Shown here piece by piece: positions 56,767 to 61,183 of a stretch of DNA of 64,000 nucleotides (position 1 is its first letter; each line of letters starts with the position of its first letter). The notes beneath the pieces are model-generated. The model saw nothing but the letters and a program-made list of their open reading frames with translations. It searched no databases and was not told the DNA's origin. The DNA comes from Curvularia clavata. Lineage: Eukaryota. The position numbers and the translations under genes are program-made. The stretch lies in NCBI GenBank assembly GCA_023920165.1, contig CP089280.1, positions 2,480,001 through 2,544,000 of the forward strand. Reading direction: 5' to 3'.

Positions 56767-58434
56767 CTATTCTTCTGGTATCTCCACAGAGATATGACCA
56801 ATACCCCTGGAAATACAAGCCAGCATTTCATCCTTCTGCTCTGCCTCGGTCAGGGCTGTACCTCGGTGCTCGACTCTTCCACACTTAACAGAAATGCGAC
56901 ATGTACCACAGCTACCTACGCCACAGGAGGTACCGATCTCGAAGCCGGCATCTTTTATGACGTCGAGAAGCGATTGTTCAGCACCAACTTGTAGAGTTTC
57001 CGTCCTGCTTTGAGAGATAACGTCGACAGAAAATGGATCACCCGATACGTTGGCTTGGAAAACTTCGTAATGTATCTCGTCAATGGTCATGCCTACAGCA
57101 GTGGCGGATTCGACTGCACTATCGATCATACGCTGTGGTCCACAGACATAAACATGACTGTTCCAGATTCTATGCTTCAACACGTTAGACATGTCCAAGC
57201 GCTGCCCTTTCGACTTGTCGTAGATGGTGATGTCGGAACCAAATTCCGAAAGCAAATCCTTGAAAGCAACCTCACTGGACTCTCTCACCGCATAGTGGAG
57301 GTGAAAGGTCTGATTGATAGTTCTGAGGCACTGAATGATCGACAGAAACGCTGTAATGCCGATACCTCCAGCAAAGAGGATGTGATGTGATGCCATTTGG
57401 TCTCTGCTCATACCTGCGCCGATCGAGCCCAGCTGTATGGTGTCTCCAGCCTGGAGCTTGTCATGAATGTAGCTAGACCCTCCTCGACTGCTATCATCCC
57501 GTGCTACACCTAATATAAACGAGTGTGTGTTGCCACTGACAATCGAGTAGGCCCGCTTGAGGCCATTGGGAAGCTTGATGTAGGCGTGGCTACCGGGACT
57601 AATGGCCTCCGGTGGTTCAGAATTTTGGGTCCGTTCAAGTTCCACTCGAGCGATACGTGGTGTCTCTAGTGATTTTGTCTTCACTCTCAGCTCTACCCAC
57701 TTTTCTTGCAACCTCGTACTTTCTGCTTTGATTCGGTGCAATCTCTCAACAAAGACGTCCTTGCACTCGTCGCCCATCGCCTCAATTGCAACAAGTTCTT
57801 TCATCACACCGATATTCGTTTTGTCGCGATGAACGTACTGGTGCAGTTGGGCGATTGACCAGCCTGGATAGCTTCTCTGGATTATCCGAAGCTCCATGCC
57901 TTCTTGAATCCAGCCCTCTTCTTTCACCCGATAGTACCAGCCAGTCTTAGCCTCCTGGTGGGTGCGTGGAGCAAAATTCTTGATGCCGAATCGCTGGTTC
58001 AGTTTGAAGCAGGGTTGTCTGGGTAAACTGACCTCTAGAAGGCAGCCATTCAATCCACCAGTAAGGTCAGATCCGGGATGACCAACACGCACTAAGTCTC
58101 CGATGCAAACATTGGTTTCATTCCAGCCATCTGCAACAAAGTTTTCGCCGAAACCACCAGGCACAAAACGTGTACATATCTCAGTTGAGGGGAAGAGGTC
58201 TTGCCAGAAGGAATAGTGAGAGGAACAATATTGGTGAATGGCCTTATCAACTCCGCCATGGAAGGTCAAGTCATGTTCATCTTCCGAAAGGCCAAGTAAA
58301 GATACATACAGCTTGCCGGAACGAACTTGCTTGTCGATACCTGAGAGGACAGTACCAAGGGGCCGGAGTTTTGAGGTTCGAATTTGTTCCAGGATGGTTG
58401 GGGAAGGGACGCTGTGTAACTTTAAGGATGCCAT
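56767..58434 (-). CDS. MOSC (YiiM-like) + 3-alpha + FAD/NAD-binding reductase + 2Fe-2S ferredoxin fusion, intronless
   Basis: SGIDK, HGGVDKAIHQY, GGFGEN, VCIGD, EVSLPRQPCFKLN (Moco Cys), TGWYYRV; RAYSI, SRGGS, AGGIGIT, YVCGP; SCGVGSCGTC...LACISR. Likely ATG at 58434. Confidence 0.92.
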   Translation of the reverse strand: MASLKLHSVPSPTILEQIRTSKLRPLGTVLSGIDKQVRSGKLYVSLLGLSEDEHDLTFHGGVDKAIHQYCSSHYSFWQDLFPSTEICTRFVPGGFGENFVADGWNETNVCIGDLVRVGHPGSDLTGGLNGCLLEVSLPRQPCFKLNQRFGIKNFAPRTHQEAKTGWYYRVKEEGWIQEGMELRIIQRSYPGWSIAQLHQYVHRDKTNIGVMKELVAIEAMGDECKDVFVERLHRIKAESTRLQEKWVELRVKTKSLETPRIARVELERTQNSEPPEAISPGSHAYIKLPNGLKRAYSIVSGNTHSFILGVARDDSSRGGSSYIHDKLQAGDTIQLGSIGAGMSRDQMASHHILFAGGIGITAFLSIIQCLRTINQTFHLHYAVRESSEVAFKDLLSEFGSDITIYDKSKGQRLDMSNVLKHRIWNSHVYVCGPQRMIDSAVESATAVGMTIDEIHYEVFQANVSGDPFSVDVISQSRTETLQVGAEQSLLDVIKDAGFEIGTSCGVGSCGTCRISVKCGRVEHRGTALTEAEQKDEMLACISRGIGHISVEIPEE

Positions 58435-59334
58435 CACTAACGTAAGTCCTACGCAGCCTACGGCAACCGTCGTACACTTCTCAAGGATTTGTGACCTGTT
58501 TGAGATTGTCGAATATTGAAAGATATTAATCGCGACAAAGATTTGCTGGGTTTGGTGTCGAATCGAAGGTTTGGCCGATGCAAACAGCAACAGTGAGAGT
58601 GAAATGGGAATTAGAAAACGCTACGTACCAGTTATTCAACTAGTGCAGCCATCCGGACAGGAGCATGCCCGTTTTCCACCGCAAATACGAGTTTCCATGT
58701 CATACCAGCAGGCCTCGGAAAGATTGCCAAATGTAGATCCGATGAGAACGAAAATCGGGCCGTTTGCCAAGCACCTGCGGCTAGACCAGAAGATTTCGCT
58801 AGCGCGCTTTAGCTGGTGGACTGCTTGTGAGGCATGCTTGCTGGAGCAGAGCGCGCTGTGCATATAGAGGCACTTCCTGACTCGCCGGCCTTATTTATTA
58901 TCGTCACGTATTCGAGGGAGCCACCCTCGTGTAAATTTATATAGTTCCTTATTGTGTTTGGAACTGATGGGGATAATGGTCGCTTGCGCACTGCAAAAGA
59001 TTGCTCGTCTACCTTACCCTATACAATACATCTTCTGCCCGTGCCTCCCTATCAGTCTAACAGCATATGTCCCTCCTATGAGACTGTAGAGAGGTATAGT
59101 TGACGTGTTGTAGATACGGCCATCTACAACAAAGAGAAGAGAGCAGTAGAGAGAAGTGTGAAACAAAGCTTTTCGCTATATTTCCTTAGAAGGGCAGGCT
59201 CTCATTTAACCTCGAACAAAGTCCTCTACCTATTCTGCGAATAGCACGCTAAGAACGTAATATTGAGATGAAGATACGAAGTGGTTGCCATATAGAAGAT
59301 ATTCTTATATGTACTACAGTGATCAATCGCTTGA

Positions 59335-59923
59335 TTAGAATCTTGCGTATGGTAGCCTGCACTTGAGTCAGTACATCAAGGAAATCAAAGCCATACAGAT
59401 ATACACACCATTTACCCCTCAACGTTATCTTTGCCCAATCCCCCTTCTCGTCCGTCTCTTTCTCCACCTTTGTCGAGAATGAAATTCCGCTCATTATGCC
59501 ATCACCAAATTTCTCGTTCAACACCGCCTTGTACGCATATCCATAGTTTTGTACGATCTCGTACAAACGGTAGATGAGCGGGTCTTTTGGTGGCATTTCA
59601 AGCGAACGGCCGCGGTCTGGAAAACCAGAGAGCTGCGACTCAAGTGTCTTGGTGGGAATATCGAGGATCTCAGATAGCTTCTGTATGTCTTCTGGCGAGG
59701 CCATCGCTTGCCCGTAGAAAAGAGCAGCGATAGCTACCTCTTGGCGACCCAATTCTTTTGCGATGGCTTCAAAGCTGAGGCACTTCTTCTTTTTAGCTTC
59801 GAACAGCGTAGAAGACGAAGGGGGTAGACGGGGAATTAATTCCTCCTGAGTCAATATCAGCTCCGTTTGTAATGATCTAAGATGTGCCCATACCTGTATT
59901 GTAGCGATTGGTTGTTTAGACAT
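59335..59923 (-). CDS. cyn1: Cyanate hydratase (cyanase), 3 exons
   Basis: [72 protein letters not shown]. Introns ~59846-59893 and ~59358-59408. Confidence 0.95.
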
Positions 59924-60363
59924 CTTGGCTGGTGTTGACTGAAATCACCGGGTAGTTGCAAATGTGGAGCAAGTAGAGACTGGAAGATATAAGACAGAGG
60001 AAACAATCACAACGATGTTTATATATGTGTATATGCTATACAGCGGTAAAGTAGCGGCAAGGTATACCAATAAGACAAGGTGGTCAAGCTCTCTGTTTGC
60101 TGAAGTCATTTAGATTGAAACCCGCATGAGTAACATTATCGGTCCATTAATACAACCCTATGCCAGTATAGGACTATGATAGATAGACCTATTCTTTTTT
60201 GAATCAATAGTGTGCTCCGTGACGTTGTTAGATGTTCCTTCGCGCTGGTTCCCGGATTTCTTTGCTGTAGTAGCCACCTCATGTCATACTGACCAATGCT
60301 TAGTGTTCCCTGAAACGACGTTTCTGCTTATTCAACAATGAACTTAACCCTTGATGATTGAAA

Positions 60364-60473
60364 TCGGCAATGTTGCCGTTTGACTACGATGGTCACTCTA
60401 CCGACGTTGGCATGCCGATGACATGCCGTCGGCATGTTATCGGCATGCCCGCCTACGACGGCATATGTGCCGA
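60364..60473. promoter_or_regulatory. Palindromic CGGCA/TGCCG array (candidate Zn2Cys6 binding sites) in the cyanase/DUF1348 divergent promoter
   Basis: Eight CGGCA/TGCCG half-sites in ~110 bp, including CGGCAA-TG-TTGCCG and ACATGCCG-T-CGGCATGT. Confidence 0.55.
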
Positions 60474-60606
60474 TCGTATCCAGATAGAATAACTAAGTTT
60501 TTGTAACCCAGAACGGAATTATGTCCCAGCACTACTCGACGCTATCTCTCAAGCTTTGAAGTATCTATTCAGTGTGATCGAATGCTGCTAGTGAATTAGA
60601 GTTTCA

Positions 60607-61183
60607 ATGCAACTGTAATAATTTGATACGTCCCTTCCACCATCCTTCAAAGAAGAAACCGCGCAGCTCATGGTAAAGACAGCTCAAGATTTATGGACAC
60701 CCAGTAAACTCTCATGATCCAAGCTATCTAAAGCCTACTAACACCCATCAGAGATCCGTCTAAAATCGCAAAAGCTTATACTTCTGATTGCGTTTGGCGC
60801 AACCGTAGTTCATTCTTCTCTGGCACTCCTTCGATTGAAGACTTCCTGACGAAGAAATGACAGGAAGAGAAGAACTGTCAGCTTTTCAAGGAGCCTTTCT
60901 CCTCCACTGACAATAAAATCGCGGAACAGTTCTGGTACGAGTATCAAGATGTGCATGATGGACTGAAGTAGAAGCGCTGTTATGGCCTTGAGGATTGGAC
61001 GTTTGCAGAGGACGGCAAGATGCGAAAGCAGCAGATGAGCGGCAATGACGTTACTATTTATGAGTTTGGTAAGAAAGAAGCCGAGTATAACTGAAGTTAG
61101 TTATGCTCATCAATTATCTAGATCGTTGGTTCACAGCTAGAGTCGATTTGAACGAAGTAAACATAAGCGAGTTGCACTGGTAA
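60607..61183 (+). pseudogene. DUF1348 (SnoaL/NTF2-like) pseudogene, 3 exon remnants
   Basis: PPSFKEETAQLMVKTAQDLW, DPSKIAKAYTSDCVWRNR, FLTKK*, DNKIAEQFWYEY, LK*KRCYGLEDWTFAEDGKMRKQQMSGND, DRWF...ISELHW*. Stops at conserved Trp codons, TAA TAA after the ATG, and a 1-nt frameshift near intron 1. Confidence 0.88.

What the first reader, a model, noticed from the sequence alone, without database searches (positions are those of the whole stretch)
56767..61183. Candidate fungal cyanate/N-O detoxification cluster: MOSC-flavin-2Fe-2S reductase + cyanase + DUF1348
Seen: a cyanase lies ~0.9 kb upstream of, and co-oriented with, a self-sufficient molybdenum-cofactor MOSC-reductase fusion, and is divergent from a DUF1348 NTF2-like gene. 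Established: cyanase converts cyanate plus bicarbonate to NH3 and CO2; the fungal cyanase cluster I know of pairs it with carbonic anhydrase, which is absent in this window; MOSC enzymes (YiiM, YcbX, mARC) reduce N-hydroxylated compounds. Inference: the three genes may form a pathway in which Mo-dependent chemistry on an N-hydroxy or N-O compound (e.g. hydroxyurea, hydroxamate or oxime type) yields cyanate that cyanase removes. This would also give DUF1348 a functional context. I do not know of this trio being described.
Basis: partly seen in the sequence, partly recalled or inferred. Interest (0 to 1): 0.8.

Follow-up and report, generated by a model that had tools for sequence, protein, structure and literature searches.

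The report
Spare cyanase with broken DUF1348 partner
A fungus carries an extra cyanate-splitting enzyme head-to-head with a broken copy of a small protein of unknown function; the same pairing turns up in another fungus and in cyanobacterial cyanate operons, which gives that protein family a testable role, while the molybdenum enzyme next door looks like a bystander.

Summary

The trio pathway is not supported. MOSC enzymes reduce N-O bonds rather than make cyanate. No cyanase lay near a MOSC gene in 80 metagenome loci or in 64 cyanobacterial genomes, though close MOSC relatives were barely sampled.

The cyanase-DUF1348 pair is what recurs. The cyanase is intact and belongs to a small 'Ser-Gly' lineage apart from the native copy; by sequence the cyanase of the published Cochliobolus lunatus cyanase-carbonic anhydrase (CCA) cluster shares its marks. 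Here DUF1348 sits where that cluster has the anhydrase. Stagonospora SRC1lsM3a has both genes intact under consecutive accessions. In 401 cyanobacterial genomes, 52 of 55 with DUF1348 have cyanase, 12 within 5 kb (0.15 expected), and these copies are not one clade. DUF1348 also sits in Nit1C and GST operons and occurs without cyanase in Bacteroidota.

Verdict: a new variant of the accessory cyanase cluster, half dead here; its value is a functional lead for DUF1348.

The parts
56767..58434 (-). Intact YiiM-type MOSC + 3-alpha + PDR/VanB-type flavin reductase + 2Fe-2S fusion, 555 aa, no introns; second copy, patchy clade; probably a bystander
   Evidence: Pfam MOSC 1e-28, Fer2, NAD_binding_1; YiiM 5yhh 3e-25 and phthalate dioxygenase reductase 2pia 1.5e-37; Cys142 and three Fer2 Cys invariant, C540 invariant in 22 rows; RNA-type contigs cover 56736-58360 in run X14
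58435..59334 (.). 900-bp spacer between cyanase stop and MOSC start; no gene remnant, no motif enrichment
   Evidence: no X14 cover in bin 58519-59019
59335..59923 (-). Intact accessory cyanase, 162 aa; exons 59923-59894, 59845-59409, 59356-59335; catalytic Arg, Glu and Ser kept, the active-site Ala after the Ser replaced by Gly
   Evidence: tree; a 151-nt X14 contig with 2 differences
59924..59990 (-). Probable decayed mitochondrial presequence: resembles the N-terminal extension of relatives but has an in-frame stop and no start codon, so the enzyme is likely cytosolic only (inference)
   Evidence: translation compared by eye with P0370 and the C4 copy
59924..60627 (.). Divergent spacer shared by cyanase and DUF1348; 6 HGATAR sites and 9 CGGCA sites
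   Evidence: tiles of equal length reaching these counts 4 of 147 and 1 of 147; CGGCA was chosen after seeing the sequence
60409..60449 (.). Inverted repeat, 20-nt arms, 95% complementary, inside the CGGCA cluster (60365-60472); candidate zinc-cluster factor sites (inference)
60628..61183 (+). DUF1348 (NTF2/SnoaL fold) pseudogene; exons about 60628-60703, 60752-61068, 61122-61183; start codon lost, probable frameshift at end of exon 1, stops at 60858 and 60969

Best explanation
The unit is a two-gene, head-to-head accessory module: a Ser-Gly-type cyanase plus DUF1348. It came into this genome from another Pleosporales lineage, or is an old paralogue pair kept in few species. The cyanase still works: it turns cyanate plus bicarbonate into carbamate and CO2, hence ammonia, probably in the cytosol and under nitrogen control. 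The DUF1348 copy has died; the native copy on C6 remains. In intact modules DUF1348 is most likely a small metal-free helper enzyme of cyanate/cyanide nitrogen scavenging. My first choice of chemistry is hydrolysis or decarboxylation of labile carbamate or carbamoyl adducts (about 0.3), the second is bicarbonate supply in place of carbonic anhydrase (about 0.15). The MOSC fusion is a separate self-contained NAD(P)H-driven N-O reductase that happens to lie downstream. Shown: gene structures, lesions, second copies, tree positions, recurrence of the pair. Inferred: transfer, localisation, co-regulation, every enzymatic role.
For: Trees: the window cyanase falls in a 6-row Ser-Gly clade with the second Stagonospora cyanase (96/93, that column masked); grouping with the own C4 copy is rejected (AU p 8e-6), with Pleosporaceae copies p 0.010. 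The pseudogene falls in a 5-row clade with the Stagonospora DUF1348 (99/93). Those two Stagonospora proteins are OAL07061.1 and OAL07060.1 on contigs of the same length, and that genome has a further cyanase OAK95485.1. The clustered C. lunatus cyanase is the only Ser-Gly sequence in Elmore's data file (2 occurrences, both this protein, against 222 Ser-Ala) and has the same C-terminal end; their SH test also separates it from the native copy. Cyanobacteria: 52 of 55 DUF1348 genomes have cyanase against 45 of 346 others; 12 of 52 within 5 kb, 0.15 expected; inside or after cynABD-cynS operons in three arrangements; the 9 linked copies put in a tree need at least 4 changes and are rejected as one clade; 6 of 53 fetched places are in or beside Nit1C clusters. 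Family-invariant Arg, Tyr, Glu, Ser, Asn residues; the NTF2 fold holds a decarboxylating amidohydrolase, AtzH (PMC6219798), and a metal-free carbonic anhydrase class has a related fold (PMC8132391).
Against: DUF1348 is not tied to cyanase: 18 of 251 Bacteroidota genomes have it and 0 of 251 have cyanase over the cut-off; 40 of 52 cyanobacteria with both keep them apart; 4 of 4 plasmid DUF1348 regions read had no cyanase and 3 had GST; of 53 fetched places 8 are GST/PNPOx-linked, 10 beside a 2OG dioxygenase, 19 other. The only experimental data on the family concern cercosporin resistance (PMC4608573). Genome counts are not independent of relatedness. The fungal pair rests on one other named genome, and adjacency there is read from accession numbers, not DNA. 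The DUF1348 AU test is borderline (p 0.048). The nearest characterised fold is ketosteroid isomerase (Z about 15), and AtzH is not among the top 50. Loss of DUF1348 here, with lesions also in other isolates, shows that the cyanase copy does without its partner.
Confidence: 0.55

Rival explanations
1. One reading: MOSC, cyanase and DUF1348 form one detoxification cluster for an N-hydroxy compound. The MOSC enzyme reduces it, and cyanase removes cyanate that forms from the same compound by spontaneous Lossen-type breakdown, as parallel branches.
For: MOSC and cyanase are both intact, 900 bp apart, both second copies from lineages other than the native ones, and both have contigs in the RNA-type run X14. 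mARC reduces hydroxamic acids and N-hydroxyurea. Close isolates hold both sides of the region.
Against: 0 of 80 MOSC loci hold cyanase, DUF1348 or beta-CA (54 of 80 have at least 2 kb upstream). 0 of 64 cyanobacterial genomes have a listed MOSC within 5 kb of cyanase. Nearest MOSC relatives are in Alternaria alternata, Aaosphaeria, Penicillium and Aspergillus, nearest cyanase and DUF1348 relatives in Stagonospora and C. lunatus. Relatives of this MOSC clade have other neighbours: asparaginase II plus a zinc-cluster factor, an MFS fragment (read by eye). Spacer motifs differ.
Confidence: 0.15
2. DUF1348 is a general stress or electrophile-detoxification protein. It lands beside cyanase and Nit1C only because these share nitrogen-starvation or toxin-responsive promoters; it has no part in cyanate chemistry.
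For: Frequent TetR-GST-PNPOx context in cyanobacteria and Proteobacteria; present without cyanase in Bacteroidota; induced by cercosporin and protective in Neurospora (PMC4608573 abstract); HGATAR sites in the fungal spacer.
Against: Insertion between cynD and cynS inside the operon in 3 genomes; several separate associations; the same pairing in fungi, at the place the anhydrase takes in CCA clusters.
Confidence: 0.25
3. All three genes are chance neighbours in a gene-sparse, rearranging chromosome end; the fungal pair is one old accident inherited by a few species.
For: A transposon-rich, RIP-like stretch begins about 40 kb to the right; only one other named fungal genome shows the pair; DUF1348 is decaying.
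Against: Congruent trees for both genes and the bacterial recurrence, 12 against 0.15 expected.
Confidence: 0.05

Closest known systems
[quoted passage not shown] 2015, PMC4438557)
   Same: Duplicated cyanase in a two-gene head-to-head arrangement, 600-2,400 bp apart (here about 705 bp). The C. lunatus clustered cyanase has the same Ser-Gly site and C-terminal end; about 15 differences in 162 residues, counted by eye.
   Different: The divergent partner is DUF1348, not a beta-carbonic anhydrase; no anhydrase or remnant nearby; the partner is a pseudogene; a MOSC fusion lies downstream.
Cyanobacterial cynABD-cynS operon; E. coli cynTSX (the latter recalled)
   Same: Cyanase with accessory genes; DUF1348 lies inside or beside cynABD-cynS in 12 of 52 cyanobacterial genomes with both genes.
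   Different: Descriptions seen list no DUF1348 gene; the fungal locus has no transporter; no beta-CA in the 10 cyanobacterial loci tested.
Nit1C cyanide/nitrile assimilation cluster (nitHBCDEFG; PMC9716671, passages)
   Same: DUF1348 lies within or next to it in 6 of 53 fetched cyanobacterial places; that paper's figure legend lists an 'ntf2' gene on a Nit1C contig without comment.
   Different: No nitrilase match on this part of C7; the contig's two matches are at about 0.62-0.65 Mb.
YiiM subfamily of MOSC N-reductases, including fusions with flavin and 2Fe-2S domains (PMC10637980, PMC5818509, passages)
   Same: MOSC + 3-alpha + flavin/NAD + 2Fe-2S architecture and the conserved cysteine; widespread in fungi (1,953 hits).
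   Different: Patchy clade, 83% to an Alternaria alternata protein, 42% to the genome's own other copy; substrate unknown; no cyanate-forming activity known for the family.
DUF1348 / PF07080: PFL_3262 (PDB 2imj) and Cercospora 71cR (PMC4608573)
   Same: Same family and fold (2imj Z 22.8, rmsd 2.0 over 148 residues for the Stagonospora protein).
   Different: Window copy is broken; a link to cyanase is not mentioned in the passages read.
AtzH (DUF3225) and iota-class carbonic anhydrases (COG4337), enzymes of NTF2-like or related cone-shaped fold acting on N-carboxy compounds or CO2
   Same: Broad fold; small polar pocket chemistry without metal; 3h51, named as an iota-CA look-alike in PMC8132391, aligns at Z 12.3, rmsd 2.2 over 114 residues.
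   Different: No sequence similarity; no HHSS motif in 57 DUF1348 rows; that Z is tied with many unrelated NTF2 proteins. Analogy only.

Membership tests
Cyanase (PF02560) | Pfam match over cut-off, full-length open frame | tested here: met
   1.8e-28 on exon 2; 162 aa spliced, no internal stop
Cyanase (PF02560) | Active-site Arg, Glu, Ser (Tl-Cyn R101, E104, S127) | tested here: met
   alignment to 6xgt and 1dw9; residues from PMC7801690
Cyanase (PF02560) | Active-site Ala after the Ser (Tl-Cyn A128) | tested here: not met
   Gly here and in a small clade; A128V lowers activity in Tl-Cyn; effect of Gly unknown
Cyanase (PF02560) | Bicarbonate-dependent cyanate breakdown by a decamer | not testable with these tools
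   needs assay
CCA gene cluster | Duplicated cyanase distinct from the native copy | tested here: met
CCA gene cluster | Head-to-head partner 600-2,400 bp away | tested here: met
   DUF1348 at about 705 bp
CCA gene cluster | Partner is a carbonic anhydrase | tested here: not met
   so not a CCA cluster, though it is built like one
YiiM-type MOSC reductase | MOSC domain with invariant Cys plus 3-alpha domain | tested here: met
   MOSC 1.2e-28; 3-alpha 2.2e-4, just under the cut-off; Cys142 invariant; 5yhh 3e-25
YiiM-type MOSC reductase | Moco binding and N-O reduction | not testable with these tools
   model pLDDT 71, under 50 around the cysteine; needs assay
DUF1348 (PF07080) | Profile match | tested here: met
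   2.7e-35
DUF1348 (PF07080) | Intact reading frame and invariant residues | tested here: not met
   pseudogene
Iota-class carbonic anhydrase (for the DUF1348 family) | C-terminal His-His-Ser-Ser motif | tested here: not met
   0 of 57 rows; motif from PMC8132391
Iota-class carbonic anhydrase (for the DUF1348 family) | Cone-shaped alpha+beta barrel | tested here: met
   shared by many unrelated proteins
AtzH / DUF3225 (for the DUF1348 family) | Tyr/Arg dyad in an Arg-rich pocket | tested here: inconclusive
   invariant Tyr and Arg residues exist but pocket geometry could not be read; AtzH not listed
Starship cargo (concept recalled) | Lies between a DUF3435 captain and the element's end | tested here: inconclusive
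   captain-like match at C7:2.853 Mb on the minus strand, about 310 kb away; 240 kb of the gap read, the rest not; no boundary found

The most novel reading that the evidence does not exclude
DUF1348 is a metal-free enzyme of CO2/carbamate chemistry that stands in for the beta-carbonic anhydrase of cyanase clusters: one mobile Ser-Gly cyanase lineage pairs head-to-head with carbonic anhydrase in C. lunatus and with DUF1348 here and in Stagonospora, and cyanobacteria have put DUF1348 into their cyanate operons several times. It would be a new carbonic anhydrase or carbamate decarboxylase class in a family spread over bacteria and fungi.
Probability: 0.15. Interest if true: 0.85.

Novelty: new variant of a known kind. 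Interest (0 to 1): 0.5.

Why it matters
DUF1348 is widespread in bacteria and fungi, has a solved structure since 2006 and no known reaction. Its repeated placement next to cyanase in two kingdoms, in fungi at the position carbonic anhydrase takes in the published CCA cluster, turns 'unknown' into a short list of cheap assays. It also changes the reading of the C. lunatus CCA cluster: its cyanase looks like a member of a small lineage that changes partners between species rather than a local duplicate. For this window the gain is smaller: the partner is dead, and the MOSC link is unsupported. I found no description of the pairing in the held library; most subscription papers are outside it.

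Tried and rejected
1. Natural cyanase-MOSC fusion: P0412 (819 aa) matches the window at 99-100% and joins cyanase, MOSC and a cutinase-family gene over long unlikely introns, dropping the cyanase's last exon and the end of the 2Fe-2S domain. Treated as a merged gene model of this or a near-identical genome, not as evidence. The 798-aa Stemphylium 'cyanate hydratase' is likewise cyanase plus the zinc-finger neighbour of the native locus (by eye).
2. Recalled lead that the Aspergillus niger MOSC gene An01g12100 neighbours a nitrilase: no paper found; dropped.
3. Decayed carbonic anhydrase near the cyanase: none in 24 stop-masked frames or by relaxed tblastn, best E 0.087 elsewhere in the window. 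Only the beta class was searched genome-wide.
4. MOSC on the same contigs as other Ser-Gly cyanases: no listed member of the 12 top MOSC clusters looked up has a matching contig length. Weak: P0412 itself was hidden in a cluster with a short representative.
5. MOSC near DUF1348 in cyanobacteria: one case at 6.5 kb (G154), a genome without cyanase; not pursued. 52 of 202 MOSC matches were not listed.
6. RIP as cause of the lesions: the 15 residue differences from P0242 need mixed base changes; judged ordinary decay, by eye.
7. Starship membership: inconclusive; C7:2,784,001-2,874,000 was not read.
8. Fold searches give only the general NTF2 fold; AtzH and the COG4337 structures are not in the lists shown. 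The MOSC model (pTM 0.41) was not searched. The Atlas returned only DUF1348 clusters.
9. Genome-contig scan with a fungal DUF1348 gave 3 loci only; viral scan with cyanase gave 1 locus, not examined.
No X14 cover over the spacers is not proof of separate transcripts.
11. No complex prediction was run; binding is not claimed.

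
Full report
Setting. The window is C7:2,480,001-2,544,000 of a 32.4-Mb, 8-contig fungal genome. Its native cyanase is 96.5% identical to a Bipolaris cluster representative, so the host is Pleosporaceae-like. The left part of the window holds housekeeping genes, the right part sparse accessory-type genes, and a transposon-rich stretch with high TpA/ApT ratios starts about 40 kb to the right.

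Observation. The MOSC gene (56767-58434, minus) is one open frame of 555 aa with MOSC, 3-alpha, flavin/NAD-binding and 2Fe-2S parts; its halves match YiiM and phthalate dioxygenase reductase, and the MOSC and Fer2 cysteines are invariant in 22 rows. The cyanase has three exons, two GT..AG introns of 48 and 52 nt and 162 aa without an internal stop. It ends 900 bp before the MOSC start. DUF1348 lies divergently at 60628-61183 but is broken: no start codon, a probable 1-nt frameshift at the end of exon 1, stops at 60858 and 60969, 15 residue differences from its nearest intact relative P0242, 4 of 30 invariant and 3 of 12 near-invariant columns altered, and an end branch of 0.12 against 0.009. 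Each gene has another copy on another contig. The genome's two beta-carbonic anhydrase matches are on C4.

Other isolates and expression. Four of 23 listed runs were laid. X3, X4 and X5 do not share three of the window's DUF1348 changes, including the first stop; whether they share the second stop is not in the rows shown. X3 and X4 carry their own 1-nt insertion in exon 3, and X4 and X5 show no gap at the end of exon 1, so they appear to share that frameshift. The copy is thus decaying in several haplotypes. X4 covers the region in two contigs, 49000-58811 (81 differences) and 58913-64000 (147); no listed piece bridges the 100 bp between MOSC and cyanase. X14 looks like RNA, since a contig of the native cyanase lacks the last intron (my reading of its loose end). 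It has contigs over MOSC (56736-58360) and 151 nt of the accessory cyanase, and none in the bins over the two spacers. This is a weak sign of transcription, not of co-regulation.

Origin of the cyanase. It is 83% identical to the native copy but 92-93% to Didymellaceae/Phaeosphaeriaceae-type proteins. It has Gly in place of the active-site Ala that follows the catalytic Ser; 5 of 160 fetched cyanase-cluster sequences had this, and three more members appeared later. In Thermomyces cyanase that Ala contacts the ligand and A128V lowers activity (PMC7801690, passages). With that column masked the 6 Ser-Gly rows of a 28-row tree form one clade (96/93); grouping the window copy with the native copy is rejected (AU p 8e-6), and grouping the clade with Pleosporaceae copies gives p 0.010 (the bootstrap had not settled). 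A 56-row tree agrees at 87/86. Upstream lies what reads as a decayed mitochondrial presequence, so the enzyme is probably cytosolic (inference). In the data file of Elmore et al. (PMC4438557; main text parts 1-4 of 5, passages of supplement 2, part 1 of supplement 3; supplement 1 not searchable) the Ser-Gly string occurs twice, both times in the clustered C. lunatus cyanase 19026, against 222 Ser-Ala strings. That protein ends like the window's and differs at about 15 of 162 residues by eye; it was not put in my trees. Their SH test rejects a single origin with the native C. lunatus copy. So this cyanase very likely belongs to the lineage of a published CCA cluster, but has another head-to-head partner. 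No anhydrase remnant was found.

The pair in fungi. The best named hits for the cyanase and for the pseudogene both come from Stagonospora sp. SRC1lsM3a: OAL07061.1 and OAL07060.1, consecutive, on contigs of equal length, with a further cyanase OAK95485.1 elsewhere. That DUF1348 is full length (151 aa). The pseudogene groups with it in a 5-row clade (99/93), apart from the native C6 copy (AU p 0.048; one row left out for lacking the anchor motif). The divergent spacer has 6 HGATAR sites (AreA-type, recalled) and 9 CGGCA sites around a 20-bp inverted repeat; 4 and 1 of 147 equal tiles reach these counts, while the MOSC spacer has 2 and 1. CGGCA was picked after looking.

The pair in bacteria. 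In 401 genomes of the phylum of G080 (Cyanobacteriota, by the title of L093) DUF1348 matched in 58, of which I dropped the 3 weakest; cyanase matched in 97. 52 of 55 DUF1348 genomes have cyanase against 45 of 346 others; 12 of the 52 have them within 5 kb, 10 co-oriented and 2 convergent, against 0.15 expected from random placement. DUF1348 sits between cynD and cynS, after cynS, or facing the operon (cynA/B/D names assigned by position and Pfam). In a 30-row tree the 9 linked copies need at least 4 changes and are rejected as one clade. Of 53 places whose DNA was fetched, many with only 1.5 kb of flank, 10 were cyanase-linked, 6 Nit1C-linked, 8 GST/PNPOx-linked, 10 beside a 2OG dioxygenase and 19 other. 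Against a fixed tie: 18 of 251 Bacteroidota genomes have DUF1348 and none has cyanase over the cut-off; 4 plasmid DUF1348 regions read of 281 records had no cyanase; one plasmid cynABDS had no DUF1348. Relatedness inflates the co-occurrence count. Two earlier AI notes place DUF1348 under cyanate-type regulators; I did not check them and do not count them.

MOSC. The fusion is common in fungi (1,953 hits among 8,000 candidates) and the architecture is known (PMC10637980, passages). The window copy is sister to an Alternaria alternata protein (83%), then Aaosphaeria (74%), within a clade that includes Penicillium and Aspergillus: a different spread from the cyanase and DUF1348. Of 80 loci kept from 91 in the metagenome scan none holds cyanase, DUF1348 or beta-CA; 54 have at least 2 kb upstream, but only 8 reach 50% identity, 4 of those have such flank, and none exceeds 58%. 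In cyanobacteria 0 of 64 genomes with a listed MOSC place and cyanase have them within 5 kb; the nearest is 22.6 kb. All assayed MOSC proteins reduce N-O bonds, and hydroxamic acids go to amides. That removes a cyanate precursor and does not make cyanate (inference). A parallel-branch version stays possible at about 0.15.

How it most likely works. Cyanase uses bicarbonate to split cyanate (established; PMC4438557, PMC7801690). A helper gene beside it should supply bicarbonate, clear carbamate or carbamoylated thiols, or share a nitrogen-starvation promoter. The DUF1348 model (pLDDT 94.5) is an NTF2 barrel closest to 2imj, then ketosteroid isomerase, with invariant Tyr, Arg, Glu, Lys, Ser and Asn residues. 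The fold has precedents: AtzH decarboxylates 1,3-dicarboxyurea with a Tyr/Arg pair (PMC6219798, passages), and COG4337 proteins hydrate CO2 without metal and without clear reverse activity (PMC8132391, passages). DUF1348 lacks their HHSS motif (0 of 57 rows) and has no sequence match to either, so it is a member of neither. Carbamate or carbamoyl hydrolysis fits the cyanase, Nit1C and GST contexts together (about 0.3); bicarbonate supply fits the positional swap with the anhydrase (about 0.15); co-regulation without shared chemistry remains a strong rival. The one experimental study of the family shows cercosporin induction and protection, with no phenotype on disruption (PMC4608573, abstract and passages).

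Novelty. Searches for cyanase with MOSC (1 paper, listing only), DUF1348 (3 papers), Nit1C/cyanase with NTF2 or SnoaL, cyanase with carbonic anhydrase clusters, cyanase with Curvularia or transfer and cynABDS neighbours showed no description of the pair. PMC9716671 lists an 'ntf2' gene on a Nit1C contig in a legend; PMC11049912 and bioRxiv 10.64898/2026.10.08.757548 (passages; its supplements are closed) do not mention it under the terms searched. PMC5818509 (passages) was used for the MOSC cysteine. Verdict: new variant of a known kind. The trio pathway is not supported; the cyanase-DUF1348 association is real, recurrent and testable; this genome holds a half-dead example. Interest 0.5.

Noticed in passing
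window 54681-59923 (P0412): A public 819-aa gene model merges cyanase, most of the MOSC fusion and the cutinase-family gene; it is labelled both cyanate hydratase and vanillate O-demethylase oxidoreductase and is an annotation artefact.
   Followed up: yes
L013:6296-11632: A 58%-identical MOSC fusion follows a Zn2Cys6 factor and an asparaginase II gene on the same strand, a possible amide or hydroxamate link for this MOSC clade.
   Followed up: no
P0024, P0432 (Aspergillus section Nigri): Longer MOSC models start with what reads as an MFS transporter fragment, suggesting an upstream transporter gene or pseudogene (by eye).
   Followed up: no
G000:C7:2853198-2854514: DUF3435 (Starship captain-like) match on the minus strand, 310 kb from the locus; broken matches on C8 and C3.
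   Followed up: partly
L180:8148 to L182:6152: NRPS with fatty-acid desaturase, ATP-grasp, Zn2Cys6 factor and peptidase S9 inside the transposon-rich end of C7.
   Followed up: no
L005:8780-9817: Bacterial-type cadmium resistance transporter (Pfam Cad) about 12 kb right of the locus, after an O-methyltransferase and a fungal rhodopsin-domain gene.
   Followed up: no
G112:C11, G158:C1, G190:C41, G150:C51, G008:C26, G398:C138, G254:C277, G338:C193: Several related-looking cyanobacterial genomes carry a DUF1348 copy with stops, most beside an intact one elsewhere, as in this fungus.
   Followed up: no
L129 (G272:C16:67605-67994): DUF1348 match inside a 604-aa open frame, a possible fusion with another domain.
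   Followed up: no
window 58811-58913: In run X4 divergence is 0.8% left of this point and 2.9% right of it, while X14 is about 3% divergent over MOSC and about 1% over the cyanase piece: the two sides may have different histories.
   Followed up: partly
window 61409-61858: 150-aa open frame after DUF1348 without a Pfam match.
   Followed up: partly
L200: A 47%-identical cyanase on a 4.7-kb IMG/VR contig.
   Followed up: no
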